From: a virus
Taxonomy: Duplodnaviria > Heunggongvirae > Uroviricota > Caudoviricetes
Length of the DNA stretch: 64,000 bases
Direction: 5' to 3' (one strand)
Virus record (IMG/VR): IMGVR_UViG_2721755712_000001
The translations under genes and the position numbers were made by a program. The notes beneath the pieces were generated by a model, which did not search any database, was not told where the DNA came from, and saw nothing but the letters and a program-made list of their open reading frames with translations. Shown here in pieces: positions 1,193 to 26,729 of this stretch (position 1 is its first letter; the number at the start of each line of letters is the position of its first letter).

Positions 1193-4100
1193 TTACTTAT
1201 TTATTGTCTCCGCGATATCAGCCAGAATGGCCTCCAGTCGCTCTCCTTCTTCCGGTCGGAAGTACAGGATATTCGGGTTAAATCCGTAGAAGACGGTTGC
1301 ATCAAGCTCTGGGAAGTACTCCTTACGACCAATCAGATCTGATGGTTTACTCTTATTGTTAAATAGTGCGGTTGAACGACTACCACACGTCAAAATGTAG
1401 GTTGGTCGTACAAGATTAATTTCTTCCCGCATAAAGTCTGTGAACTGGCCTATCTCGTCTTTGGTATAGTCTTTCTCTTTGTCCTTAACCTTCTTACAAA
1501 CACCCGTGACATAAAGATCGCCCATGCGCAGATCTCCAACTGTCAGTAGTTTTGCCTTAAAGTCGTCGTATCCGTTCTCCATGAAGTAGCCGGTACGAGC
1601 GTCATTGCCGTTCGCATTGTCCAGAATGATCATGATTTTGGGTTTAATACCAATAGTCGGGCGTATCAACTCCTCACCCAAGCCCATTTCAGCCGCCATA
1701 CGTGTCATGAGTACGTTGATTTCGGCAGAACGCTTAGGATTCATTTCGAACGGACGTGATGCTTTAACAGCGTCAATGATGAGATTGCCCATCAGCTCAG
1801 CCTGGTCGCGCAGTCGTTCAGGATCAGTTGCTGGCAGACTGCCTGGCTCAATTGACGCAAAAGCCCCTACTTTATGAAGCGACTCGCGTACACGACTGTT
1901 ACATGCACGCTTCTCGACCGCTTCATCGAATTGTGCCACTGACTCGAATTTGCCACCAACTTTCTCACGCGCACGCATAATTGCCTGACAACCATTTTCA
2001 GAACAGCCTTTCACAGCAGAGAATGGCGCATACAGTGCCTGACTGCCGTCTTCGAGTGTGCGGATCTCAATTCGGTTAGATGACACATTAACGTCTGGTG
2101 GCAATACGCGAATGCCATAGGTCAGCGCATCCTTCACCAGCCCCTGATGCTTATCCTCGCCCAGAATGGTGAGCGCAGCTGCGAAGAACTCAGCAGGGTA
2201 GTGCGTCTTTAGCCACATAGACTGATAACTGATTAAAGAATAAGCAACGGAGTGTGATTTATTGAACTGATAGGCTCCGTTTTTCTCAAATGCGGTCCAG
2301 ATCTCCTTCGCTTTCATCTCTGATAGCCCTGGATGTGACGCTGTAACGCGTACTGCGTTTATAGGTAGTTTTGCGCCGTGCTCAAGTGCCTCTTCGACAG
2401 TTTTCAGAGTTCCGTCTTCGCATTTAAAATGTTCCGCACGGTGAATGCGCTGTGTAGTGCCATCTTCCAGCTCAACGTCTATCCAGCCAGCTTGAGCCTG
2501 AACGATGAACTTCTCGCCCATGCTCTTCATTTTTTCCATGTTCTTCTTACCGATTGCGGAACGCACAGCGTCAGCTTCAGCCATTGTGAAGCCGGCAAGC
2601 AATCGAGTCGCGTTCATCGTCTGTTCCTGATAGAGAATCACGCCATTTGTTTCCGCGGTAAGTTCATCAAGAACGGGGTGTAATGATTCCGGCGTCATAA
2701 AGCCTTTGGCGACAGAAACATAGTCATCCAACATGCCTGATTGAATTGGCCCCGGCCGGAAGAGCGCAGTTGTAGCGACGACCGTTTTAAAGCTCATTGG
2801 CTCAATTCCACCACCTAAATCTTTAAGCAGCTTGCGCATTGGGCCTGATTCAAGCTGGAAAACACCTTGAGTGTACCCAGCAGCAAAACCATCCAGCACC
2901 TTGCGATCTTCAAGAGAAATGGCATCAAGATTGATATCTTCACCTGTGTTCTCTTTTATGTAGCGTTTTGCACTATCGAGCAAATCGAGAGTTGCCAGGC
3001 CAAGCACGTCCAGCTTAATTAGGCCCATAGCCTCGCAGTAACGCTTGTCAAATGCGATACAACGCGCGTCACCACGGCGCTCAACCGGTGTACGTTCTGT
3101 CAGAGGAACACCTGCTACGATCATCCCTGCCGCATGTCTACCAAAGCCACGCATAAGGCTTTGTAACTTGCAGGCTGCATTGAATGCATCAGGATATTTT
3201 GTTGCGTATTTGTCGAGACTTGCCAGTTGTTCGCGCAGCTCTTCCAATGGAAGGCTATCATCCTCGACGTTCTTCAGTTCTTTTGATACCGCCATATCTG
3301 CGGACTCCACACCATAAATACGAGCGGTATCACGTAGTGCAGAGGCTGCGCCCAGGTAGGTGAAGTTCGGAATACCCGCAACGTAATCTTCGCCGTAGCG
3401 TTCATTCAGATACTCGATCACCTCATGGCGACGTGCCTGGCTGAAGTCCAAGTCCGCATCCGGCAAGTCGAGACGCTCAGGGTTGATGAAACGCTCAAAC
3501 AGAAGACCGTGACGGATTGGGTCGACGTTGGTTATGCCTATGCACCACGCCACCAGAGAACCGGCAGAGGAACCACGACCAGGCCCAACGGGAATGCCAG
3601 TTTCACGACTATGATTCATCAGATCGCGTACCATCAGGAAGTAACCACAAAATCCCAGGCGAGTCAGCGTGTCCATTTCGTACTTTAGCCGCTCAACATA
3701 AACCCTGTTCTCAGAAGCAGGTGGTGTGTAGCCAAACTCTTTTGTGGTAAGACGTTTACGCAGCCCTGCAACAGCCAGTTTCATAAGCGTTGCAGGCTCG
3801 TCGTCTGCCATCTTTGGCAGTGCTGGCGGCAATTCATGCCAGCGCCATGTGCAGGCATCGATAATGGTATCCTGCGTTGTTGAGGCCATTGCAGCTGTTA
3901 CCGGCACATCCATGCGAACGGAGAAGGCTTTAAGCGCCTCAAGGAGATGGCGGCGACCATTGACGGCGTTATCTCGCTGGTGGGGGATACGCAGACGATG
4001 CGGCTGGTCGATTTTGATGTTGTTCGTAACCATGTGCGCAATGTCTTTAATGTCTGCATCGTCGATCGATTCGTAATAAGCGGGATAGAACGCCACTGGC

Positions 4101-4711
4101 TCTATTTTCAATGCGCTGGCGACTTTCATCGCCCGGACGTTAATCTGGTCGTAGAATGGGGTAGGGTGCGGATAAACCACACTATAGAAGTTGTCTTTTC
4201 CACCCGCTGTAATCAGTGTGCTTATGATTTTTGCAAAATCGTTGCGTTGGAACACGCTACCGATGTCGGAAGTAAGCAGGATGATGTTGCCTTTGGCATA
4301 TGTAGAAACCAACTGTTCGAGCGAGAGACGCGGTACAAAGTAGAACTGTTCTCGTGTGTTGGCCACCGTCATTAGTTCGCAGATGTCGCGATATCCTTGC
4401 TCATTTTTAATTAGAGCGGTAAACGAGTAGTTACGTCCCCGCTCTAATGATTCCATACATCTCATAGATTCTTTAGCAAGTTTAGCCCGGTGCTCGTATG
4501 TGGGATCATCAACAATGTTTAGTTTCACACCACAAATAACCGCCATGTCGTCACCAGCGGCACGTTGTAGTGGAATAACGCTCGCAATATTCATGCTATC
4601 TGCTGAAATTACAGCGGTGTAGCCAGCTTCTCTGGCAATCTTCACCGCGTTTTCTGCTTTTAGAGCCGACTCCCCAAGTGAGAAGTCAGTTCGAACCATC
4701 AGTGCTTTCAT
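1193..4711 (-). CDS. DNA polymerase III alpha subunit-like replicative polymerase (DnaE family)
   Basis: 1172 aa; contains GPGRGSSAGSLVAWCIGITNVDPIRHGLLFERFINPERLDLPDADLDFS, matching the DnaE palm/catalytic-aspartate region; N-terminal PHP-like region appears degenerate (no His cluster). Confidence 0.9.
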   Translation of the reverse strand: MKALMVRTDFSLGESALKAENAVKIAREAGYTAVISADSMNIASVIPLQRAAGDDMAVICGVKLNIVDDPTYEHRAKLAKESMRCMESLERGRNYSFTALIKNEQGYRDICELMTVANTREQFYFVPRLSLEQLVSTYAKGNIILLTSDIGSVFQRNDFAKIISTLITAGGKDNFYSVVYPHPTPFYDQINVRAMKVASALKIEPVAFYPAYYESIDDADIKDIAHMVTNNIKIDQPHRLRIPHQRDNAVNGRRHLLEALKAFSVRMDVPVTAAMASTTQDTIIDACTWRWHELPPALPKMADDEPATLMKLAVAGLRKRLTTKEFGYTPPASENRVYVERLKYEMDTLTRLGFCGYFLMVRDLMNHSRETGIPVGPGRGSSAGSLVAWCIGITNVDPIRHGLLFERFINPERLDLPDADLDFSQARRHEVIEYLNERYGEDYVAGIPNFTYLGAASALRDTARIYGVESADMAVSKELKNVEDDSLPLEELREQLASLDKYATKYPDAFNAACKLQSLMRGFGRHAAGMIVAGVPLTERTPVERRGDARCIAFDKRYCEAMGLIKLDVLGLATLDLLDSAKRYIKENTGEDINLDAISLEDRKVLDGFAAGYTQGVFQLESGPMRKLLKDLGGGIEPMSFKTVVATTALFRPGPIQSGMLDDYVSVAKGFMTPESLHPVLDELTAETNGVILYQEQTMNATRLLAGFTMAEADAVRSAIGKKNMEKMKSMGEKFIVQAQAGWIDVELEDGTTQRIHRAEHFKCEDGTLKTVEEALEHGAKLPINAVRVTASHPGLSEMKAKEIWTAFEKNGAYQFNKSHSVAYSLISYQSMWLKTHYPAEFFAAALTILGEDKHQGLVKDALTYGIRVLPPDVNVSSNRIEIRTLEDGSQALYAPFSAVKGCSENGCQAIMRAREKVGGKFESVAQFDEAVEKRACNSRVRESLHKVGAFASIEPGSLPATDPERLRDQAELMGNLIIDAVKASRPFEMNPKRSAEINVLMTRMAAEMGLGEELIRPTIGIKPKIMIILDNANGNDARTGYFMENGYDDFKAKLLTVGDLRMGDLYVTGVCKKVKDKEKDYTKDEIGQFTDFMREEINLVRPTYILTCGSRSTALFNNKSKPSDLIGRKEYFPELDATVFYGFNPNILYFRPEEGERLEAILADIAETINK

Positions 4712-4895
4712 GTGTTTTTACCTTTATGGTTTTTTTGATTTTGTCATTGGGGAAGCCTACGAACTTCCCATACATCGAAATCGCAACTTCTTTTGCTGAT
4801 TGGTGACAATCGGGCTTGTCTGGACATACCAGACAAGCCTTACCAGTTTCAGAAGCAGCGATAAGAGAGCCGAAACATCCTTTACGCACGATCAA
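4686..4895 (-). CDS. small Cys-rich protein, possible zinc ribbon
   Basis: 69-aa ORF overlapping the polymerase start; C-x2-C...C-x4-C spacing; coupled between CobS-like and polymerase genes. Confidence 0.35.
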   Translation of the reverse strand: MIVRKGCFGSLIAASETGKACLVCPDKPDCHQSAKEVAISMYGKFVGFPNDKIKKTIKVKTHESTDGSN

Positions 4896-6127
4896 CCAAA
4901 TATTTTTTGAACAACTTCACGAGCCGCTTGTGCAGAAGCTGAAGGGAGTTTGTTAATGAAAGAACGCTCAATACCTGTCACAAAGTCGCCTCGCATCATT
5001 CCAATCTTGGCCGACAACAAAAGTTCACGAGGGCCAATTGGCTGACTGATAAGGTGCTCTTCGTATCCATCGCGAACGATACCGGCAAACTTAACCATCT
5101 TTTCTGCGTATTCATCCACGATACCGGCATTTATCAACATGTTGATCTCTGCCTCTTTGCTCATGTATTTCACATTCGAAACGATGCCAAAACGCGAAAA
5201 GTTCGCGGCGTTCTGGATGTTTGTACCCTGGTACAAGCCGGTTTCATCACCAGATCCGTTCGTGTTGCCAGTGCCAATGAAAGCAAACCGTTCATGCGGA
5301 GTAATGCGACGCCATTCTGGAGTCGCCTCTTTGATGACCAACGCTTCACCTTCCAGCACTGGCTGATACACGCCAAGAATCTGTGGAAACGCAAAGTCGT
5401 ATTCATCCGCGAGGTAAACCCAGCCATGCTTCATTGCGAGCGCAAGCAAGCCAGGCTCGAAATACGTAGAGCCATCACGCGCCAGAATTTGCCCCGTAAC
5501 ATGTGCCTCTTCCATTGATGCTGTATGTTGGGCACGGATCAACGGACGATTGAGCAAAGCACATAGTTGTGTAGGCAATGACGATTTGCCTGTTCCTGCA
5601 TGACCCCACAAATAGCCAGGTATGCCAAGTTCAAGCATCATGAAAATGTCTTTGATCAGTTCGAAGTCGCCATATACGTAGCCCTTCTTCACTTCTGGAA
5701 CGAACTCTGGAAACGGCGTATTGACGTTGACGCTAACCATGAGCGGCGTCCCACGTTTTGTTCCGAGTTCTTTCACCGTTACATTTAGCAGTTCGTGAGC
5801 TGCGACCAGATCTGTCTTGTACTCAACTGTGCCTGTGTAGCCTGGGCTACTGGTCACGCCAGATGATTTGGCCATTTCGCTTTTTTGCTCGGCACGTTTA
5901 GCTTGAATTGCATCAAGTGCCTTTTTCGATAGCGTTGGCTCATCTGGAAACTGTGTTGTGTACATTTTCAGTACGGTGTCAGGATCGGCATCTTTTACTG
6001 ACTCAGGAATGCCCTCGCAATTACCATTGGCTACATGGGACTTAAAATAGTGAAATGATTTTCCGCACCACTTGCAAACAAGGTAATCAGAAGGATTTTT
6101 TTCATTTTGCAGTGCAGTAGTAGTCAT
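4892..6127 (-). CDS. AAA+ ATPase, CobS/MoxR-like, with N-terminal Cys cluster
   Basis: Walker A GHAGTGKS, Walker B VYLADEYD; N-terminal CKWCGKSFHY...C motif; paired with a downstream vWA protein as in CobS/CobT pairs. Confidence 0.65.
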   Translation of the reverse strand: MTTTALQNEKNPSDYLVCKWCGKSFHYFKSHVANGNCEGIPESVKDADPDTVLKMYTTQFPDEPTLSKKALDAIQAKRAEQKSEMAKSSGVTSSPGYTGTVEYKTDLVAAHELLNVTVKELGTKRGTPLMVSVNVNTPFPEFVPEVKKGYVYGDFELIKDIFMMLELGIPGYLWGHAGTGKSSLPTQLCALLNRPLIRAQHTASMEEAHVTGQILARDGSTYFEPGLLALAMKHGWVYLADEYDFAFPQILGVYQPVLEGEALVIKEATPEWRRITPHERFAFIGTGNTNGSGDETGLYQGTNIQNAANFSRFGIVSNVKYMSKEAEINMLINAGIVDEYAEKMVKFAGIVRDGYEEHLISQPIGPRELLLSAKIGMMRGDFVTGIERSFINKLPSASAQAAREVVQKIFG

Positions 6128-6222
6128 GCGTTTTTCCTTTGTTTTCTAATGAGCGTTCAACTTCTTATATAAATATATCATTATCTATCGTAAGTGGTTA
6201 CTTATCGTTAAGGCTGTTTTGT

Positions 6223-8331
6223 TCACTTTAAAATGATACGAGATAGTTCAGTAACTACAGATGAACCAAGACTATCAACGCTCGTTACCAGGGCATGATT
6301 TGAGTAAAATCTCTCCGGTGCGTCAGTCATGATGCCAATTGCCATCAAATCAATGTCAGTCTGCGTTTCAATTTGCTTCGCAACCGAACGCAAATGAGCG
6401 TCAAAACCTCTCCCAACAGCCCACGGCTCGCCATCGCTCAGAACAAGCATGATCTTCCTGTCCTCCATGCGACCGGAAAATAACGATGCAAGGCTGGCTA
6501 TGCTTTCACCATCCACGTTATTAAGAAGTGGGAATGTGTAGCCTACGCACCCCATACGTGAGCGAACTTCGCGAGAATTTACCTTTTCATTCCAATTTTT
6601 GATGATAGGTAGCATTAAAGATTCAAAGCGAGAGAACTCATACTTGACAGCCTTAAGTTCTCCTGCCGCCATATGACTACCAAATGTAGTGAAGCCTGTG
6701 ATAATGTTGGGAACATTTATTCGATCAAGGGCATCGGCGATGGTATATGCACTTGCAAGAGCCAATTGTATCGTTATACCCCTCATTGAACCTGATAAAT
6801 CAATCACTTGTTGAACACAGGCGTTAACGGCTTTAGATTCTTCTTTTTTACGAAACACGCGATCATCATTCATTGCTAATCTGTAGATACTAGAACCATG
6901 AATGCGCCCCCGACGCTGGCCCGGTATAAACTGAACTCTGTTTCTGCTTGCTATTGCTCGCTCCAGGTCTTTTGCCAGCGTCGACGAAACACCTGACGAA
7001 AGATGCTTTTCAATATATTTGTCGAAGAGCTGGTTGCCTTCAGGAACGATGCGATAGCGGCTGATTGGACATCCTCCTAAATCAATATCGGAGAATGTTT
7101 TAATAAGCCGTTTGATATGGGCTTCTGCCTGATCAATCGAGCCGATGAAGTCGTATGAGCGATTGTATGGCCTGTATTCGCTTTTCGAGCTTTCTGTTAA
7201 CTCGCTTTTAATCGTTTCGGATAGAGCATCTTCTGTCATGCCTCCGACTTCATCTTCTATGCTATCCAGCTCCTCTAAAGCCTCTTCCAGACTCATTTTT
7301 GACGGAGTTGGGATATCTGAAGAGCCGTCTTCTGTCGTTTTTCTTTTTTCGTGGTCAGCGGTTAATGATTCTGACGCCGCGTTATCAGAAGCATCAGAAT
7401 CTGATACCTCTTTATCATTTTCTGTATCATCGAATATTGTTTCTGATGATTCAGATAATTCTGAATCATCACTGTTGTTATTATCATGTTTGTGCTTACT
7501 ATGTGATTCTGATTTGATAGATTTGTGGTTATCTAACGATGAAGATGTCTCATGATCTTCGTTGTCTTCATTGTTTTCTCCAGAGGCATCCGTCTGGTCA
7601 GCGTCTGAAGGATCGGAAGTTTTTCCCGGAGCTGACTCCTTACCATTGCTTTCACTTTCAGTGTCTTTGAGGATCTTAGCTATGGTCGCAGCCACCTTTA
7701 CACAATCCTCGGTGCAAGACATGTTACGCACGGCCACATCGATACCATGTTCTTTTAATAATGAAATTGGTTTCTCAATGACAGGCCAGTATTCATCCAT
7801 GAAATCTACGAACGGTGCTTGGCCATCCCAGGCTCTTACAACCGGACAGAGAAAGAAGTTTAGAAAAAGCGCGCGCTGATCTTTGCCACAATAAGCAATA
7901 GCCTCTGAAGCCTTTGGTTTAAAGACTTTTTCGATTATAAGGCGCTGAGTTGCCATCAGATTACGTCTTGTTCCGTTAAAGACCTGACCCATTTTTCGCT
8001 CGATGAACACGTCTTCTAAGGCATTCCATAGCGACCAGGAAGGAACGCGTCCTTTTTCTCTCATTTTGTTGGACACACGAATATCGGTAAACAAAATGTG
8101 AGCAACCTCATGATCGAGAAATCCGCGCACAGCATTCATCAATGCCGGTGTTGCGTTATCCGGGATTGATGGGATGTTTACGAGAATTGGCTCTCCATCA
8201 TCGTTATAGCGTACATAAGCGTCGTCCCCTCGTTCTGCAACAGGGATGTTTTTACCTGAAAGGAGAGCGACTACTCGTTTTACACTGTCACGGAAGTCCT
8301 GAACCTCTTTGATGGAACGTTTTTTAGACAT
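6223..8331 (-). CDS. CobT-like von Willebrand factor A protein with acidic Ser/Asp/Glu-rich linker
   Basis: C-terminal MIDAS-like motif VIDLSGSM; central low-complexity acidic region; N-terminal HEVAH (HExxH) motif. Confidence 0.6.
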   Translation of the reverse strand: MSKKRSIKEVQDFRDSVKRVVALLSGKNIPVAERGDDAYVRYNDDGEPILVNIPSIPDNATPALMNAVRGFLDHEVAHILFTDIRVSNKMREKGRVPSWSLWNALEDVFIERKMGQVFNGTRRNLMATQRLIIEKVFKPKASEAIAYCGKDQRALFLNFFLCPVVRAWDGQAPFVDFMDEYWPVIEKPISLLKEHGIDVAVRNMSCTEDCVKVAATIAKILKDTESESNGKESAPGKTSDPSDADQTDASGENNEDNEDHETSSSLDNHKSIKSESHSKHKHDNNNSDDSELSESSETIFDDTENDKEVSDSDASDNAASESLTADHEKRKTTEDGSSDIPTPSKMSLEEALEELDSIEDEVGGMTEDALSETIKSELTESSKSEYRPYNRSYDFIGSIDQAEAHIKRLIKTFSDIDLGGCPISRYRIVPEGNQLFDKYIEKHLSSGVSSTLAKDLERAIASRNRVQFIPGQRRGRIHGSSIYRLAMNDDRVFRKKEESKAVNACVQQVIDLSGSMRGITIQLALASAYTIADALDRINVPNIITGFTTFGSHMAAGELKAVKYEFSRFESLMLPIIKNWNEKVNSREVRSRMGCVGYTFPLLNNVDGESIASLASLFSGRMEDRKIMLVLSDGEPWAVGRGFDAHLRSVAKQIETQTDIDLMAIGIMTDAPERFYSNHALVTSVDSLGSSVVTELSRIILK

Positions 8332-13183: not shown

Positions 13184-13270
13184 TGGCGGAGAGTAATGGA
13201 ATCGAACCATCATCGTTTGCACAATGGGACGGTTTTCAAGACCGCTTGAGCACCATGCTCCCTACTCTCC
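13184..13270 (-). tRNA. tRNA-Ser (anticodon UGA), long variable arm
   Basis: reverse complement folds with acceptor GGAGAGT/ACTCTCC, anticodon loop CUUGAAA, T-loop GGTTCGATTCC, encoded GCCA 3' end. Confidence 0.8.
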
Positions 13271-13590
13271 AGCTATTGTGATGGTCGGTACTGAACTCCG
13301 ACACAGGGTTGTAGCAAGCCCCGCAAAGCGCGCACTACTGTAGTTGCGGCACATCAGCCTGTGCATTCATCACAACGGTAAGATCACTACCTTTCGACCA
13401 GTCATTGTGCACATGAACGACGATTAACCGTAATGATATTATCGTTGTGTTGTGAAGCCAGATGCTTATCTTCTGGTTGCTTCAAAGAGCTGCACTTCCT
13501 CACAACGGTAAGAGCACTGGTCTGACTCTATCGATTTACGGCCTTGTGGGTCAGTATCGCCGATTCGCCCAATGCTCTTACCTGTTGTGT

Positions 13591-13666
13591 TGGTGCCGGT
13601 TAACGGACTTGAACCGCTGGCCATTCGCTTACAAAGCGACTGCTCTACCAACTGAGCTAAACCGGC
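13591..13666 (-). tRNA. tRNA-Thr (anticodon UGU)
   Basis: acceptor GCCGGTT/AACCGGC, D-arm GCTCAGTTGGTAGAGC, anticodon loop UUUGUAA, T-loop GGTTCAAGTCC, encoded CCA. Confidence 0.75.
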
Positions 13667-13670
13667 AATT

Positions 13671-13757
13671 TGGTGGGGAGTGATGGAGTCGAACCACCCG
13701 AGTCGCCATGACAGTAGATTTACAGTCTACACCGCTACCTCTACGGACTAACTCCCC
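13671..13757 (-). tRNA. tRNA-Tyr (anticodon GUA), long variable arm
   Basis: acceptor GGGGAGT/ACTCCCC, anticodon stem GTAGA/TCTAC with loop CUGUAAA, T-loop GGTTCGACTCC, encoded CCA. Confidence 0.8.
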
Positions 13758-13762
13758 TAAAT

Positions 13763-13837
13763 TGGCGATGGTGGGTGGATTCGAACCACCGACCAGTTGG
13801 TTAACAGCCAACTGCTCTACCGCTGAGCTACACCATC
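13763..13837 (-). tRNA. tRNA-Asn (anticodon GUU)
   Basis: acceptor GATGGTG/CACCATC, D-arm GCTCAGCGGTAGAGC, anticodon stem GTTGG/CCAAC with loop CUGUUAA, T-loop GGTTCGAATCC, encoded CCA. Confidence 0.8.
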
Positions 13838-20782: not shown

Positions 20783-23071
<2,289 letters not shown>

Positions 23072-23491
23072 CCGTCGTGCAGCTGCGGAAAGAACGGTGG
23101 AGATAAAGTAGTCGTATGAGCAGCAATAGCGGTCAGCAAACTGGCGTGCTTTCCATAGAGACGTTTTATTGGCAGTCGACAACTCCTGATAAGGCAGGCG
23201 TTTTAACCCGGTGGTGAACGGAGCTGTTTCAAAGTGTTCGCGACCGTGCGTCAGCATGATATTTGAGTACTGACGTTTGTATGCCTCCGTAAAAAGACAG
23301 GTGGCCATGAGAGGATGCATGTCGCGGTAATCAAACCACTTCGTCTCGAAGAGTTCAGCCTCATCTTTACAGCGCGACAAACCAATGTTTTCAGCAACCC
23401 ACTTGTCCATAACAGCGGTATTCCACTCTGTCATGAAGTCGTACTGGTTGTTGTCGATGGTATCGAAAAAGATTTGGCTCATGTGGCTCAC
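23072..23491 (-). pseudogene. N-terminal fragment of the phage gene interrupted by the IS element
   Basis: ORF 23015..23491 continues into the IS right end before stopping; first 140 codons are phage-derived. Confidence 0.6.
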
Positions 23492-23597: not shown

Positions 23598-23652
23598 ACC
23601 TGCTTCCGTATATATTTAATAAGTTACTTATTATTTATATATACAGAAGCAG
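23598..23652. repeat. 55-bp near-palindromic element, copy 1
   Basis: CCTGCTTCCGTATATATTTAATAAGTTACTTATTATTTATATATACAGAAGCAGG, identical to 54905..54959; sits in the divergent region between the interrupted gene and the GIY-YIG gene. Confidence 0.9.
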
Positions 23653-23764
23653 GCATAACTTGTCGTCTTAGACGCCCAGAAGCTCTACACTTTGAGCCTG
23701 TTAAATTGATTAAAAACTTATGTGTAAAATAGAACGCATTAGTCAGTAGCAAAGAGATGCAATA

Positions 23765-24532
23765 ATGGACGATTTATCGGTATACGCGAGATCATTGGAT
23801 AAGGCTAAATACTATGTTTACTGCCTCTATGATACAGAAGACAAGATGAAAAGACCGTTTTACATAGGAAAAGGCAAATCGACTCGTTGTCTCGATCACA
23901 TCAAGTATCCCGATGACTCTCCCAAATCCATGCGGATCAAAGAACTTTTGGCTAATAAAAAATTAGGCATAGATATTCTTCGTCATGGTATGGATGAAAC
24001 CACAGCCAAACTTGTTGAGGCGACATGCATCGACCTTATGGGGGTCGGAGAGCTTACGAATAAGGTACGAGGAAGTGGTTCCATGATGGGCAGAATATCA
24101 CTGGACGCCTACCATCACTTAGTGCTGCAAGAGGAAACTGAAATTGCTCCTGAGCACGCCGGTCTTGCCTTCCTGCTAAACAGCACCTACAAGTCAGGAA
24201 TGTCCGCTCTGGCATTATATGAAGCTACGCGTGGCGTATGGGCAAAGGTTCCAAGAGACGAGAATCTCAAATATGCCTACGCTACATATGGTGGGCTAAT
24301 AATGGAAGTTTATCAGATTGAATGCTGGGTCAAAGCCGGTTCTCAGCAGTACTTTACAAGGGATATAGCTCTTGGCCCCGACACAAAACGTTATGAATTT
24401 GTTGGCAGAATAGCCGATGAGCATATTAGAAAACTGTATGTAGGCAAATTAATCAAGAAGCCACCAAGCTACGGTAGCCCTTTTGTGAAGGTTGGGGTGG
24501 TTAGGACTGAACATAGTGTTAGCGCGGCATAA
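23765..24532 (+). CDS. GIY-YIG nuclease-domain protein with uncharacterised C-terminal region
   Basis: N-terminal YYVYCLY...PFYIGKGK...R...H matches the GIY-YIG catalytic motif; about 150 C-terminal residues without a recognisable motif. Confidence 0.6.
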   Translation: MDDLSVYARSLDKAKYYVYCLYDTEDKMKRPFYIGKGKSTRCLDHIKYPDDSPKSMRIKELLANKKLGIDILRHGMDETTAKLVEATCIDLMGVGELTNKVRGSGSMMGRISLDAYHHLVLQEETEIAPEHAGLAFLLNSTYKSGMSALALYEATRGVWAKVPRDENLKYAYATYGGLIMEVYQIECWVKAGSQQYFTRDIALGPDTKRYEFVGRIADEHIRKLYVGKLIKKPPSYGSPFVKVGVVRTEHSVSAA

Positions 24533-24547
24533 AGCTGACACTGTAGT

Positions 24548-24580
24548 TATGCATTGGCGCAATGTACGCGCCAATGCATA
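24548..24580. terminator. bidirectional hairpin terminator
   Basis: perfect inverted repeat TATGCATTGGCGC-AATGTA-GCGCCAATGCATA followed by ATTTTTAA, between convergent GIY-YIG and partition genes. Confidence 0.7.
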
Positions 24581-24584
24581 ATTT

Positions 24585-24944
24585 TTAACCTTTCTTCATC
24601 AACTCTCGTTTGATTTCATCGGTACGCATCGTGACATCGGCAGCGGTGATCGCCTCATTCAATTTCACGATGTCCTCGATTTCCTGCGGTGACTTCTCTG
24701 CCAGATGGAAAATGGCTGCTCGAATCACGTCAGAACGAGTGAACTTCTCGAAGCGAGGGATGAACTTCATCATCTCCAGCAGTTCGAAGTATTCGTCCTC
24801 CAGTGACATTGTGCGGCTTTTAATTTTCTCTTTGCCACGAGTCGGGCGTCCCTGTGGTCTGACTGGTTGGCGCAAAGGAGTTGTGTTCTTAGCCGGTGCA
24901 TCAGGCTCTTTGCGCTTTGCTAGGTCACCCATTTTCATGGACAT
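24585..24944 (-). CDS. partition centromere-binding protein, ribbon-helix-helix (ParG-like)
   Basis: 119 aa; basic disordered N-terminus then C-terminal RHH-like segment; stop/start overlap with the parA-like gene. Confidence 0.5.
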   Translation of the reverse strand: MSMKMGDLAKRKEPDAPAKNTTPLRQPVRPQGRPTRGKEKIKSRTMSLEDEYFELLEMMKFIPRFEKFTRSDVIRAAIFHLAEKSPQEIEDIVKLNEAITAADVTMRTDEIKRELMKKG

Positions 24945-25612
24945 TATTCTTCTTCCTCCAGACTCAACAGATAATCTACAAATTCTTCAAACTCGGCTTC
25001 CGCCTTTTTGTCGCGCTCGCTACCGGTCATTTCAAAGATAGAACGACCAGACTCTTCCGCATCATCATAGACGTTGCGGTTATATAGATTGACTGGCGCA
25101 GACTCGATTCCAAACGTCTCAACAATCTCTTTAGCCGCCAGAATGCGAGACACTTGTGATGGCAAAGCCGGGCACTGGTTCATGACCGCGCGGACCTTCA
25201 CTTTATCGTTTACATTGCGAACATTGTCGATAATAGGATCGATGTCACGTAAAGATTTCAAATCACGACGCTTAGGACGCAGCGGGATAATGATAACGTC
25301 AGCCATCAGCATCGCTTGTCGCTGAATTTCGGAGTCGAAGCCACCAGCATCTACCACTACAAACTCAGCTCTACCCTGAAGCGATTTTAGGTGCTTAATG
25401 ATGTCATCCTGAACGTATGCAAAAGGAATCAGCTCAAGGTCTTCGTTCTGTCGACGGTCTTCACACCAGCTCGTTGTCGTGCGCTGAATATCTATATCGG
25501 TAATATAAACCTTCTTCTTCTTTTTGACTTTCAGGCAAACGGCAATTTGCTGGGCAACGGTGGATTTGCCAGGCCCGCCCTTTGTGCCGCCAACCACAAA
25601 GATCTTGGTCAT
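24944..25612 (-). CDS. parA: ParA-family partition ATPase (small, type Ib-like)
   Basis: 222 aa; deviant Walker A GGTKGGPGKST near the N-terminus. Confidence 0.8.
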   Translation of the reverse strand: MTKIFVVGGTKGGPGKSTVAQQIAVCLKVKKKKKVYITDIDIQRTTTSWCEDRRQNEDLELIPFAYVQDDIIKHLKSLQGRAEFVVVDAGGFDSEIQRQAMLMADVIIIPLRPKRRDLKSLRDIDPIIDNVRNVNDKVKVRAVMNQCPALPSQVSRILAAKEIVETFGIESAPVNLYNRNVYDDAEESGRSIFEMTGSERDKKAEAEFEEFVDYLLSLEEEE

Positions 25613-25930
25613 TGGAGAGTTCCCTTTGCGTATATAATTATCGTCTGAAACAACTTGTTTTCTTATATGTGATATAGCCTAAATGCCTACGGCTGCGGTG
25701 TAAAGGTTAAATGGTAGGTTGTGATTAACAATTGGCAATCATAGCTTGTATTTGTCTGTTGAAAAAAGTAACAATGACCTCTATATTACAAGTACGGTGA
25801 TATGCCGTACACAATTTGATAATGCACACGTAATGGGCTATAGCCTTTTAAAGTAATTTTTGAGTCGAAAACTCAGTTTGAACAGAGGAGATTGATGGCC
25901 TTCCTACATCACGGCCATCAGGAGGAATAC

Positions 25931-26200
25931 ATGTCAGCACTAAAAAAGCAGCGCATCGATTTGAGATTAACCGATGACGATAAAAGCATCATCGAGGAAG
26001 CTGCCGCAATGTCTAACCAGAGCATTACTCAGTTTATGGTTAGCAGTGCATCTGAACGTGCCGTGAAAGTTATAGAGCAACACCGTAGACTAGTTCTGAA
26101 TGAAGAATCCTGGAATCTGGTTATGGACGCTATAAGCAATCCTCCGGCACCGAACGACAAGCTGAAACGAGCTGCTGATCGTCTGAAAAGCATGGAGTAG
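25931..26200 (+). CDS. antitoxin, RHH/DUF1778-like (TacA-like)
   Basis: small protein immediately upstream of and coupled to a GNAT gene; start placed at internal Met MSALKKQRIDLRL; the track ORF begins at 25892. Confidence 0.6.
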   Translation: MSALKKQRIDLRLTDDDKSIIEEAAAMSNQSITQFMVSSASERAVKVIEQHRRLVLNEESWNLVMDAISNPPAPNDKLKRAADRLKSME

Positions 26201-26207
26201 TTTACTC

Positions 26208-26729
26208 GTGAGCAATACAACGATAGAGATTTTCTCTGGAGAGAAAGATTATGATCTAAACGGTTTTGATTGCGGCGAAGAGTCACTAAACGCCTTTTTA
26301 GCCAACCACTTAAAAAGGCAGCATGAGGGAAAAATTCTTCGTGCTTATGTGCTTTGCACTCAAGAAGAAAGGCCAAAAGTGTTAGGATATTACACTTTGT
26401 CAGGTAGTTGTTTTGAAAAGGAGTCCTTACCTTCAAGAAGCAAACAAAAGAAGGTTCCTTATCGGAATGTTCCAAGTGTCACTTTGGGTAGGCTGGCTTT
26501 GGACAAGTCCCTTCAAGGTCAAGGATTTGGCTCAATGCTTGTAACACATGCAATGCGCGTTGTGTACAATGCATCTCTTGCTGTAGGCATTCATGGGCTT
26601 TTCGTTGAGGCGTTAAATGACAAAGCCAAGGCGTTTTATAAAAGTTTAGGCTTTATCCAGCTGGTTGGTAACAACGAGCGTTCTTTGTTCTATCCTACAA
26701 AATCTATCGAAAAATTGTTCGAAGAATAA
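26208..26729 (+). CDS. GNAT-family acetyltransferase toxin (TacT-like)
   Basis: 173 aa; acetyl-CoA binding motif QGQGFGSMLV; 8 bp after the antitoxin gene. Confidence 0.65.
   Translation: MSNTTIEIFSGEKDYDLNGFDCGEESLNAFLANHLKRQHEGKILRAYVLCTQEERPKVLGYYTLSGSCFEKESLPSRSKQKKVPYRNVPSVTLGRLALDKSLQGQGFGSMLVTHAMRVVYNASLAVGIHGLFVEALNDKAKAFYKSLGFIQLVGNNERSLFYPTKSIEKLFEE

What the first reader, a model, noticed from the sequence alone, without database searches (positions are those of the whole stretch)
23765..24532. GIY-YIG nuclease-domain protein with unassigned C-terminal domain in the accessory region
A clear N-terminal GIY-YIG motif is fused to about 150 residues without a recognisable motif. The gene sits between the IS insertion and the partition/toxin-antitoxin block and is driven from the divergent region containing the 55-bp palindrome. 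It could be a homing endonuclease, a defence effector, or an anti-defence nuclease.
Basis: partly seen in the sequence, partly recalled or inferred. Interest (0 to 1): 0.5.

Follow-up and report, generated by a model that had tools for sequence, protein, structure and literature searches.

The report
PD-T4-3/CMoRE-type restriction nuclease on phage-plasmid
The gene is a divergent copy of an already characterised single-gene anti-phage nuclease (PD-T4-3, also called CMoRE) that cuts the chemically modified DNA of T4-like phages, carried here as swappable cargo on an SSU5-like phage-plasmid of E. coli. It is a sound observation but essentially an ordinary one.

Summary
The 255-aa ORF at 23765-24532 (+) is real. 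Its GIY-YIG motif is real. The "unassigned" C-terminal 150 residues have no Pfam or NCBIfam model, but they are not unknown.

CMoRE is a published type IV restriction endonuclease that cuts 5hmC/glucosyl-5hmC DNA of T-even phages (Nat Commun 2026). Its GIYxY-YIG tyrosines and catalytic Arg/Glu/Asn are all conserved here (Y17, Y19, Y33, R41, E85, N99). The acidic autoinhibitory loop is five residues shorter and keeps only two of the four acidic residues.

The gene fills a 933-bp variable slot (23654-24586) between a conserved 55-bp palindrome and the par operon. Related phage-plasmids carry other candidate defence genes in that slot. About 41% of E. coli elements with this par backbone carry this cassette.

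The homing-endonuclease and anti-defence readings are not supported. Substrate specificity at about 30% identity is inferred, not shown.

The parts
23765..24532 (+). [quoted passage not shown]
   Evidence: ORF. PADLOC PD-T4-3 E 1.3e-23, residues 11-231 against profile positions 11-238 of 256. PDB chains 9U7U/9U75 phmmer E 2e-15, query 12-230. Foldseek top hits 9u75/9u7u, E 2e-11.
23765..24049 (+). [quoted passage not shown] N99 lies at the start of the linker.
   Evidence: Pfam PF22945. These residues are invariant in the close subfamily and in 55 family representatives at 28-48% identity. They align with CMoRE Y17/Y19/Y31 and the catalytic Arg/Glu. After the CMoRE chains, the next fold hits are UvrC GIY-YIG domains.
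23906..23920 (+). Alpha2-alpha3 loop (residues 48-52, YPDDS). It corresponds to CMoRE's acidic autoinhibitory loop but is 5 residues shorter, with 2 of the 4 acidic positions kept.
   Evidence: phmmer alignment to 9U7U/9U75. Loop census across 55 subfamily members. Helix boundaries from the model.
24050..24094 (+). Flexible inter-domain linker (residues 96-110)
   Evidence: pLDDT below 50 for residues 96-105 in the AF2 model. The CMoRE linker is disordered in the crystals.
24095..24505 (+). C-terminal domain (residues ~111-247), homologous to the CMoRE modification-sensing domain. W159, W188 and F212 are invariant across the family.
23654..23764 (+). Cassette-specific upstream region. Candidate promoter read by eye: TTAAAT 23701-23706, 18-bp spacer, TAAAAT 23725-23730. 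Shine-Dalgarno-like AAGAG at 23752-23756.
   Evidence: Homology to Cyrano, SSU5, pJN2-26 and CP054387 stops at 23653-23663, while PhiR41_1, which has the gene, continues. The promoter is my reading of the sequence. The consensus scan did not flag it.
24545..24586 (+). Intrinsic-terminator-like hairpin (16-bp stem, 7-nt loop) running into a T run, directly after the stop codon
   Evidence: Perfect 14-bp inverted repeat at 24547-24581. RNA fold -25 kcal/mol, z -6.0. It lies inside the cassette-specific DNA. The simple terminator scan did not list it.
23654..24586 (.). Variable cargo slot of the SSU5-like backbone, filled here by the PD-T4-3-like cassette
   Evidence: The right breakpoint is 24587 in all four comparisons. 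The left breakpoint is 23653-23663. Other occupants: DUF2971/PADLOC PDC-S31 in Cyrano, SSU5 and pJN2-26, and a 567-aa PDC-S49-like protein in CP054387.
23599..23653 (.). Conserved 55-bp palindrome that marks the left edge of the slot. It is backbone, not part of the cassette.
   Evidence: It is conserved from E. coli to Salmonella and Klebsiella elements with compensatory arm changes. The minus-strand RNA hairpin is -30.2 kcal/mol and is followed by UCUUUU.

Best explanation

By analogy with the characterised enzymes, the C-terminal domain binds hypermodified cytosines (5hmC or glucosyl-5hmC) in incoming phage DNA. The N-terminal GIYxY-YIG nuclease then cuts that DNA, probably as a dimer or tetramer. 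The unmodified DNA of the host and of the phage-plasmid is spared. The system needs no methyltransferase or other partner.

The gene is a self-contained cassette with its own upstream region and terminator hairpin. It sits in a cargo slot at the end of the par operon of an SSU5-like phage-plasmid. Its benefit to that element is protection of its host cell from T-even-type lytic phages.

Shown here: homology over both domains, fold identity, conservation of catalytic residues, cassette boundaries, and distribution. Inferred: nuclease activity, the modification recognised, oligomeric state, expression signals, and the protective phenotype.
For: PADLOC PD-T4-3 hit, E 1.3e-23, near full length.

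phmmer against PDB 9U7U/9U75, 'GIY-YIG domain-containing protein' = PD-T4-3, E 2e-15 over query residues 12-230. Identity on aligned pairs is 35%: N-domain 40%, C-domain 32%.

Y17, Y19, Y33, G35, G37, R41, E85, N99, W159, W188 and F212 are invariant across 55 family representatives. All 55 hit PADLOC PD-T4-3.

The family is large and keeps the same ~250-aa architecture: 1340 clusters at E<=1e-10.

Published function of homologues: CMoRE cleaves only 5hmC/5ghmC DNA, protects about 10^5-fold against T2/T4/T6, and is not abortive (PMC12923530). A 48%-identical Capnocytophaga homologue behaves the same way (PMC12366544). A native PD-T4-3 is active in a clinical E. coli strain.

DefenseFinder reports PD-T4-3 in SSU5-group phage-plasmids of E. 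coli and Shigella.

The slot holds other PADLOC candidate defence genes in sister elements. No methyltransferase gene is adjacent.
Against: Identity to the biochemically characterised enzymes is only about 27-35%, so specificity cannot be transferred with certainty.

One of the two features the CMoRE authors call distinctive is reduced. The acidic lid loop with four consecutive acidic residues is five residues shorter here and contains only D50-D51, balanced by two basic residues.

Interface residue L96 of CMoRE is Cys88 here.

The only ligand contact described in the paper is a main-chain oxygen, so binding-site conservation cannot be judged from sequence.

No expression or phenotype data exist for this subfamily, and the promoter is only a by-eye candidate.
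Confidence: 0.8

Rival explanations
1. Same family and same chemistry, but a different or broader specificity than 5hmC/5ghmC. Possible targets include arabinosyl-hmC, Mom-type carbamoylmethyl-adenine or another hypermodified base. The shortened, near-neutral lid loop would imply a different way of avoiding self-cleavage.
For: The C-domain is only about 32% identical to CMoRE. The loop is shortened and has 2 acidic and 2 basic residues. Published homologues already show plasticity: PD-T4-3Capno also cuts Mu DNA, and CMoRE acts weakly on arabinosylated phages. A native PD-T4-3 misses some Tevenvirinae genera.
Against: All tested family members so far, down to 48% identity between them, restrict T4 in a modification-dependent way. 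The family-wide invariant C-domain residues are kept. The authors state that 'most', not all, family members have the acidic loop.
Confidence: 0.15
2. A free-standing GIY-YIG homing endonuclease (Seg/I-TevI-like) that spreads its own cassette into phage-plasmids lacking it.
For: It has a GIY-YIG catalytic domain. Cassette boundaries are sharp. There is a weak PHROG hit to a 'homing endonuclease' family (E 0.28). Distant jumbo-phage homologues are annotated 'putative homing nuclease'.
Against: The C-terminus has no NUMOD, HTH or zinc-finger DNA-binding module; its fold is the CMoRE sensor domain. Elements without the gene carry unrelated genes in the slot rather than an empty target site. Chromosomal 75-79% homologues are isolated genes among housekeeping genes. 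In non-phage-plasmid replicons the gene travels with its backbone flanks, not alone. Homologues are experimentally modification-dependent, not site-specific.
Confidence: 0.03
3. A nuclease that serves the phage-plasmid itself: anti-defence, host-DNA degradation during lytic growth, or replication/recombination.
For: It lies next to the replication (helicase/primase) and partition modules of a phage genome. Its PHROG family has no assigned function.
Against: Only about 41% of E. coli elements with this par backbone carry it (105 of 253 genomes). SSU5 itself lacks it, so it is accessory. It is homologous over its full length to a proven defence enzyme. Close homologues occur on chromosomes outside any phage.
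Confidence: 0.02

Closest known systems
PD-T4-3 / CMoRE (E. coli APEC O1 and O157:H7; PDB 9U7U, 9U7Z, 9U75, 9U8D; Liu et al., Nat Commun 2026, PMC12923530; originally from E. coli ECOR68)
   Different: Only ~27-35% identity. The alpha2-alpha3 lid loop is 5 residues shorter, with DD instead of DDDD/DDDE. L96 is replaced by Cys88. It is carried in a cargo slot of an SSU5-like phage-plasmid. No biochemical or phenotypic data exist for this subfamily.
PD-T4-3Capno (Capnocytophaga homologue from metagenomic selection, PMC12366544)
   Same: Member of the same family. It shows that distant members keep modification-dependent cleavage of T4 DNA and depend on the GIY-YIG active site.
   Different: It also cuts Mom-modified Mu DNA at high concentration. 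I did not compare its sequence with the window protein directly.
EVE-HNH / SRA-type type IV enzymes (VcaM4I, PvuRts1I, McrB N-terminal reader domains)
   Different: Different nuclease fold (HNH or PD-(D/E)XK versus GIY-YIG). Reader similarity is in the grey zone, with under 10% identity. The assignment of those PDB entries to the PUA-like group rests partly on my own knowledge.
GIY-YIG homing endonucleases (I-TevI, SegA-G)
   Same: GIY-YIG catalytic core, and occurrence on phage genomes.
   Different: No NUMOD, HTH or zinc-finger DNA-binding tail. It is not in an intron or an empty-site polymorphism. Homologues are modification-specific, not sequence-specific.

Membership tests
PD-T4-3 / CMoRE | Profile-level match over the whole protein to the family model | tested here: met
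   PADLOC PDLC04031, E 1.3e-23, residues 11-231 against profile 11-238/256. All 55 of 55 family representatives related to the window protein hit the same model.
PD-T4-3 / CMoRE | Sequence homology to the solved CMoRE chains across both domains | tested here: met
   phmmer E 2e-15 and 3.5e-15, query 12-230 against chain 17-243. Identity on aligned pairs is 35%.
PD-T4-3 / CMoRE | 'GIYxY-YIG' motif: three tyrosines (CMoRE Y17, Y19, Y31) | tested here: met
   Y17, Y19 and Y33 align with them and are invariant.
PD-T4-3 / CMoRE | Catalytic Arg and Glu of the GIY-YIG active site (plus the conserved Asn) | tested here: met
   R41, E85 and N99 align with the CMoRE Arg, Glu and Asn and are invariant.
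PD-T4-3 / CMoRE | Inserted acidic alpha2-alpha3 lid loop with four consecutive acidic residues (autoinhibition) | tested here: not met
   The loop is 5 residues shorter. Only D50-D51 remain, with 2 acidic and 2 basic residues in the loop. Across the subfamily the longest acidic run is 1-2 residues in 43 of 55 members. The authors say 'most', not all, members have this loop, so the feature is typical rather than obligatory.
PD-T4-3 / CMoRE | C-terminal modification-sensing domain of the CMoRE fold | tested here: met
   [not shown]
PD-T4-3 / CMoRE | Single-component system with no cognate methyltransferase or partner | tested here: met
   The cassette 23654-24586 contains only this gene. Chromosomal homologues are solitary.
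PD-T4-3 / CMoRE | Dimer/tetramer interface (V92/L96 essential) | tested here: inconclusive
   V92 aligns with V84 (kept). L96 aligns with C88, which is invariant in the subfamily. No multimer model was made.
PD-T4-3 / CMoRE | Cleaves 5hmC/5ghmC DNA only, and protects against T-even phages without abortive infection | not testable with these tools
   Requires plaque assays and in vitro nuclease assays.
GIY-YIG homing endonucleases | C-terminal sequence-specific DNA-binding modules (NUMOD/IENR1, HTH, Zn finger) | tested here: not met
   No such Pfam hit at E<=1. The C-domain fold is the CMoRE sensor.
GIY-YIG homing endonucleases | Presence/absence polymorphism with an intact target site in relatives lacking the gene | tested here: not met
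   Relatives carry unrelated genes in the same slot.
PUA-like reader domains (EVE/ASCH/YTH) | Significant structural similarity of the C-domain to PUA-like barrels | tested here: inconclusive
   [not shown]

The most novel reading that the evidence does not exclude
The phage-plasmid subfamily is a functionally distinct branch of PD-T4-3. It has a shortened, near-neutral lid loop and a sensor domain only ~32% identical to CMoRE. It may therefore read a different phage DNA hypermodification, or control self-toxicity by another route. In addition, the family's sensor domain may be a cryptic PUA-like (EVE/ASCH/YTH-type) reader rather than the 'distinct fold' reported.
Probability: 0.2. Interest if true: 0.45.

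Novelty: new member of a known kind. Interest (0 to 1): 0.25.

Why it matters
The finding mainly closes a question. RefSeq calls this gene 'hypothetical' or 'LEM-3-like GIY-YIG'. It can now be read as a type IV restriction enzyme against hypermodified (T-even-type) phages.

Two modest points go beyond that.
- The SSU5-like phage-plasmids have a defined cargo slot at the end of the par operon that exchanges defence candidates. This helps anyone cataloguing phage-plasmid accessory genes, and it bears on phage therapy with T4-like phages against E. coli that carry these elements.
- This branch lacks most of the acidic 'safety catch' described for CMoRE. That makes it a natural test of the published autoinhibition model.

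Tried and rejected
- NCBIfam gave no hit. PHROG 5356 matched strongly but has no assigned function.
- Pfam and PADLOC scans of the flanking parB-like protein and the IS-split 246-aa protein gave nothing useful.
- The consensus promoter/terminator scan found no promoter upstream of the gene and missed the hairpin after the stop codon. The promoter I list is therefore only a by-eye candidate.
- Superposing the full-length model on the crystal structures gave a low TM of 0.37, because the modelled domain orientation differs across the flexible linker. I resolved this by modelling the C-domain alone.
- I considered that the cassette is independently mobile, because it also occurs in 52-230-kb plasmids. 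There it is embedded with remnants of its phage-plasmid flanks among IS elements or in a reduced phage-plasmid, so I rejected this.
- I considered that this could be the original ECOR68 PD-T4-3. The modest 82-bit score against the PADLOC model, compared with up to E 3.6e-47 for other family members, argues against it. I did not check it against the ECOR68 sequence.

Full report
**1. Observation**

The ORF at 23765-24532 (+) is real: ATG start, 255 aa. Its product is 100% identical to a protein cluster with 372 member sequences, which NCBI names 'LEM-3-like GIY-YIG domain-containing protein'. Pfam sees only a GIY-YIG domain (PF22945, residues 32-104, E 5.5e-7). NCBIfam sees nothing.

The neighbourhood is as described:
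- IS100kyp (IS21 family, istA/istB) occupies 21118-23071, flanked by a 5-bp duplication CCGTC.
- It splits a conserved 246-aa gene into fragments at 20783-21117 and 23072-23482 (minus strand).
- To the right lie a parB-like gene (24585-24944, -), parA (24944-25612, -) and a DUF1778/GNAT toxin-antitoxin pair (25892-26729, +).
- The 55-bp palindrome is at 23599-23653.

**2. What the window is**

The region is 98-99.7% identical to ~105-115-kb, mostly non-mobilizable plasmids of E. coli and E. albertii. It also matches Escherichia phages CMS-2020a and PhiR41_1, and its par region is 80-86% identical to Salmonella phage SSU5 and related Klebsiella phage-plasmids. The window is therefore part of an SSU5-supergroup phage-plasmid.

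**3. What the gene is**

Four independent lines identify the protein as a PD-T4-3/CMoRE family member.

- *Profile match.* PADLOC's PD-T4-3 model matches residues 11-231 against profile positions 11-238 of 256 (E 1.3e-23).
- *Match to solved chains.* A sequence search of PDB chains returns only 9U7U/9U7Z and 9U75/9U8D (E 2e-15 and 3.5e-15). The alignment covers query residues 12-230, which is both domains. These entries are PD-T4-3, renamed CMoRE (PMC12923530). Identity on the HMMER-aligned pairs is 35%: 40% in the N-domain and 32% in the C-domain.
- *Fold, full length.* An AlphaFold2 model built on 55 homologues (pLDDT 82.7, pTM 0.77) hits the four CMoRE entries first (E 2e-11, probability 1.0). 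UvrC GIY-YIG domains come next. The global TM is low (0.37) because the modelled domain orientation differs across the flexible linker.

The 'unassigned' C-terminal domain is therefore the CMoRE modification-sensing domain.

**4. What is known about the family**

From papers:
- CMoRE protects E. coli about 10^5-fold against T2, T4 and T6 by direct defence, not abortive infection.
- It binds and degrades DNA containing 5hmC or glucosyl-5hmC, but not C or 5mC.
- It cuts CN11/N9G and needs two modified sites.
- It forms a tetramer whose disruption (V92S/L96S) abolishes defence.
- It has a 'GIYxY-YIG' motif (Y17, Y19, Y31) with catalytic Arg and Glu.
- It has a 15-residue acidic loop between helices 2 and 3 that acts as a safety catch. 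Replacing its four acidic residues with alanine gives activity on ordinary DNA and toxicity.
- A Capnocytophaga homologue, 48% identical to the original PD-T4-3, shows the same modification dependence and also cuts Mom-modified Mu DNA at high concentration.
- A native PD-T4-3 is one of only two active systems in the clinical E. coli strain NILS69.
- A survey of clinical Enterobacteriaceae already lists DefenseFinder PD-T4-3 calls in SSU5-group phage-plasmids of E. coli and Shigella.

**5. Residue-level comparison**

Numbering in the PDB chains is the paper's numbering plus 5. The table maps CMoRE residues to the window protein.

| CMoRE (paper numbering) | Window protein | Status |
|---|---|---|
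| Y17, Y19, Y31 | Y17, Y19, Y33 | conserved |
| catalytic Arg | R41 | conserved |
| catalytic Glu | E85 | conserved |
| conserved Asn | N99 | conserved |
| R80 | R73 | conserved |
| V92 | V84 | conserved |
| L96 | C88 | changed |

Y17, Y19, Y33, G35, G37, R41, E85, N99, G103, W159, W188 and F212 are invariant in an alignment of the window protein with 54 family representatives at 28-48% identity. All 55 sequences hit PADLOC PD-T4-3.

The profile of the close subfamily finds 3143 clusters at E<=1e-3 and 1340 at E<=1e-10 among 1.84 billion representatives. Most are 240-265 aa and match end to end.

The one clear departure is the lid loop. It is five residues shorter here (YPDDS against VDDDE/ADDDD plus a 5-residue insert). 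It keeps two of the four acidic positions and carries two basic residues. The whole close subfamily shares the short loop.

**6. Genomic setting**

Comparison with Cyrano, SSU5, pJN2-26 and CMS-2020a (CP054387) shows where homology ends. On the left it ends at 23653-23663, immediately after the palindrome. It resumes at exactly 24587, two bases beyond the parB-like stop codon. The 933 bp in between form a cassette that contains only this gene, its 111-bp upstream region and a strong hairpin after the stop codon (-25 kcal/mol, z -6.0, running into a T run).

Other elements fill the same slot differently:
- Cyrano, SSU5 and pJN2-26 carry a DUF2971 protein matching PADLOC candidate PDC-S31. SSU5 and pJN2-26 add two further small genes.
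- CP054387 carries a 567-aa P-loop protein matching candidate PDC-S49.

Among 5426 complete E. coli genomes, 253 carry this par backbone and 105 carry the cassette, always on plasmids.

In some larger plasmids the gene survives together with fragments of its phage-plasmid flanks among IS elements. Chromosomal homologues at 75-79% identity in Providencia and other Enterobacterales are solitary genes between housekeeping genes.

This is the pattern of an accessory defence cargo gene exchanged by recombination in conserved flanks. It is not the pattern of a homing endonuclease.

**7. The palindrome**

The palindrome is conserved from E. coli to Salmonella and Klebsiella elements, with compensatory changes in its arms. 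On the minus strand it folds at -30.2 kcal/mol and is followed by UCUUUU. In elements whose cargo genes are on the minus strand, it lies just downstream of them.

I read it as the terminator of the par-plus-cargo transcription unit and the left anchor of the slot, not as the promoter region of the GIY-YIG gene. This is inference. A candidate promoter for the gene lies inside the cassette (TTAAAT, 18-bp spacer, TAAAAT at 23701-23730), but I found it by eye and the consensus scan did not report it.

**8. Mechanism**

[quoted passage not shown] It senses hypermodified cytosine through the C-domain and cuts through the GIYxY-YIG domain. This protects the cell, and so the resident phage-plasmid, from T-even-type phages.

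| Claim | My estimate |
|---|---|
| Family membership | about 0.95 |
| Modification-dependent anti-phage nuclease | about 0.8 |
| Specificity is 5hmC/5ghmC in particular | lower than 0.8; not estimated |

Specificity is less certain because identity is low, the lid loop differs, and the published contact is a backbone atom.

**9. Novelty and score**

This is a new, uncharacterised branch of a known and recently solved family. Standard defence-finding tools already recognise it. Interest is low to moderate (0.25).

Noticed in passing
window 23599-23653: The 55-bp palindrome is conserved across the SSU5 supergroup (E. coli, Salmonella and Klebsiella elements) with compensatory arm changes. Homology between elements ends right after it. 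The minus-strand RNA hairpin is -30.2 kcal/mol and is followed by UCUUUU. It is probably the terminator of the par(+cargo) operon and the left anchor of the variable slot.
   Followed up: partly
window 23654-24586; L001 3590-4405; L003 ~3063-5000; L005 ~3081-4838: A cargo slot between the palindrome and the parB-like stop codon holds different genes in sister phage-plasmids. Cyrano, SSU5 and pJN2-26 carry DUF2971/PADLOC PDC-S31, with two extra small genes in SSU5 and pJN2-26. CP054387 carries a 567-aa P-loop protein matching PDC-S49. It looks like a defence hotspot.
   Followed up: partly
window 21118-23071 (flanks 21113-21117 and 23072-23076): IS100kyp (IS21 family, istA/istB), 1954 bp, with a perfect 5-bp target duplication CCGTC. 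It splits a conserved 246-aa gene of unknown function next to the DnaB-like helicase gene, into fragments 20783-21117 and 23072-23482. Only one PLSDB plasmid (NZ_CP041426.1) matched across this junction.
   Followed up: partly
[not shown]
   Followed up: partly
phage records H123-H136 (e.g. Serratia phage Moabite NC_048792 6439-7125): Lytic jumbo phages of Serratia and Pectobacterium (~255-276 kb) encode full-length two-domain homologues (~28% identity, 85-88% coverage). They are annotated as GIY-YIG or homing endonucleases. This could be phage-versus-phage use of a PD-T4-3-type enzyme.
   Followed up: no
L006 (NZ_CP062888.1, 141-kb plasmid) 4734-6285: In ETEC-type plasmids carrying the CFA/III regulator cofR, the GIY-YIG gene, the parB-like gene and a stub of the upstream gene survive as an island between IS3, IS30 and IS2 copies. 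This is a retained fragment of a decayed or fused phage-plasmid.
   Followed up: partly
window 25892-26729: A DUF1778 antitoxin and a GNAT acetyltransferase toxin (KacAT/TacAT-type, as annotated in phage Cyrano and RefSeq plasmids) lie directly beside parA. PhiR41_1 has different genes at that position, so this may be a second variable spot.
   Followed up: no
window 13184-13837 (-): Cluster of four tRNA genes: Ser-TGA, Thr-TGT, Tyr-GTA and Asn-GTT.
   Followed up: no
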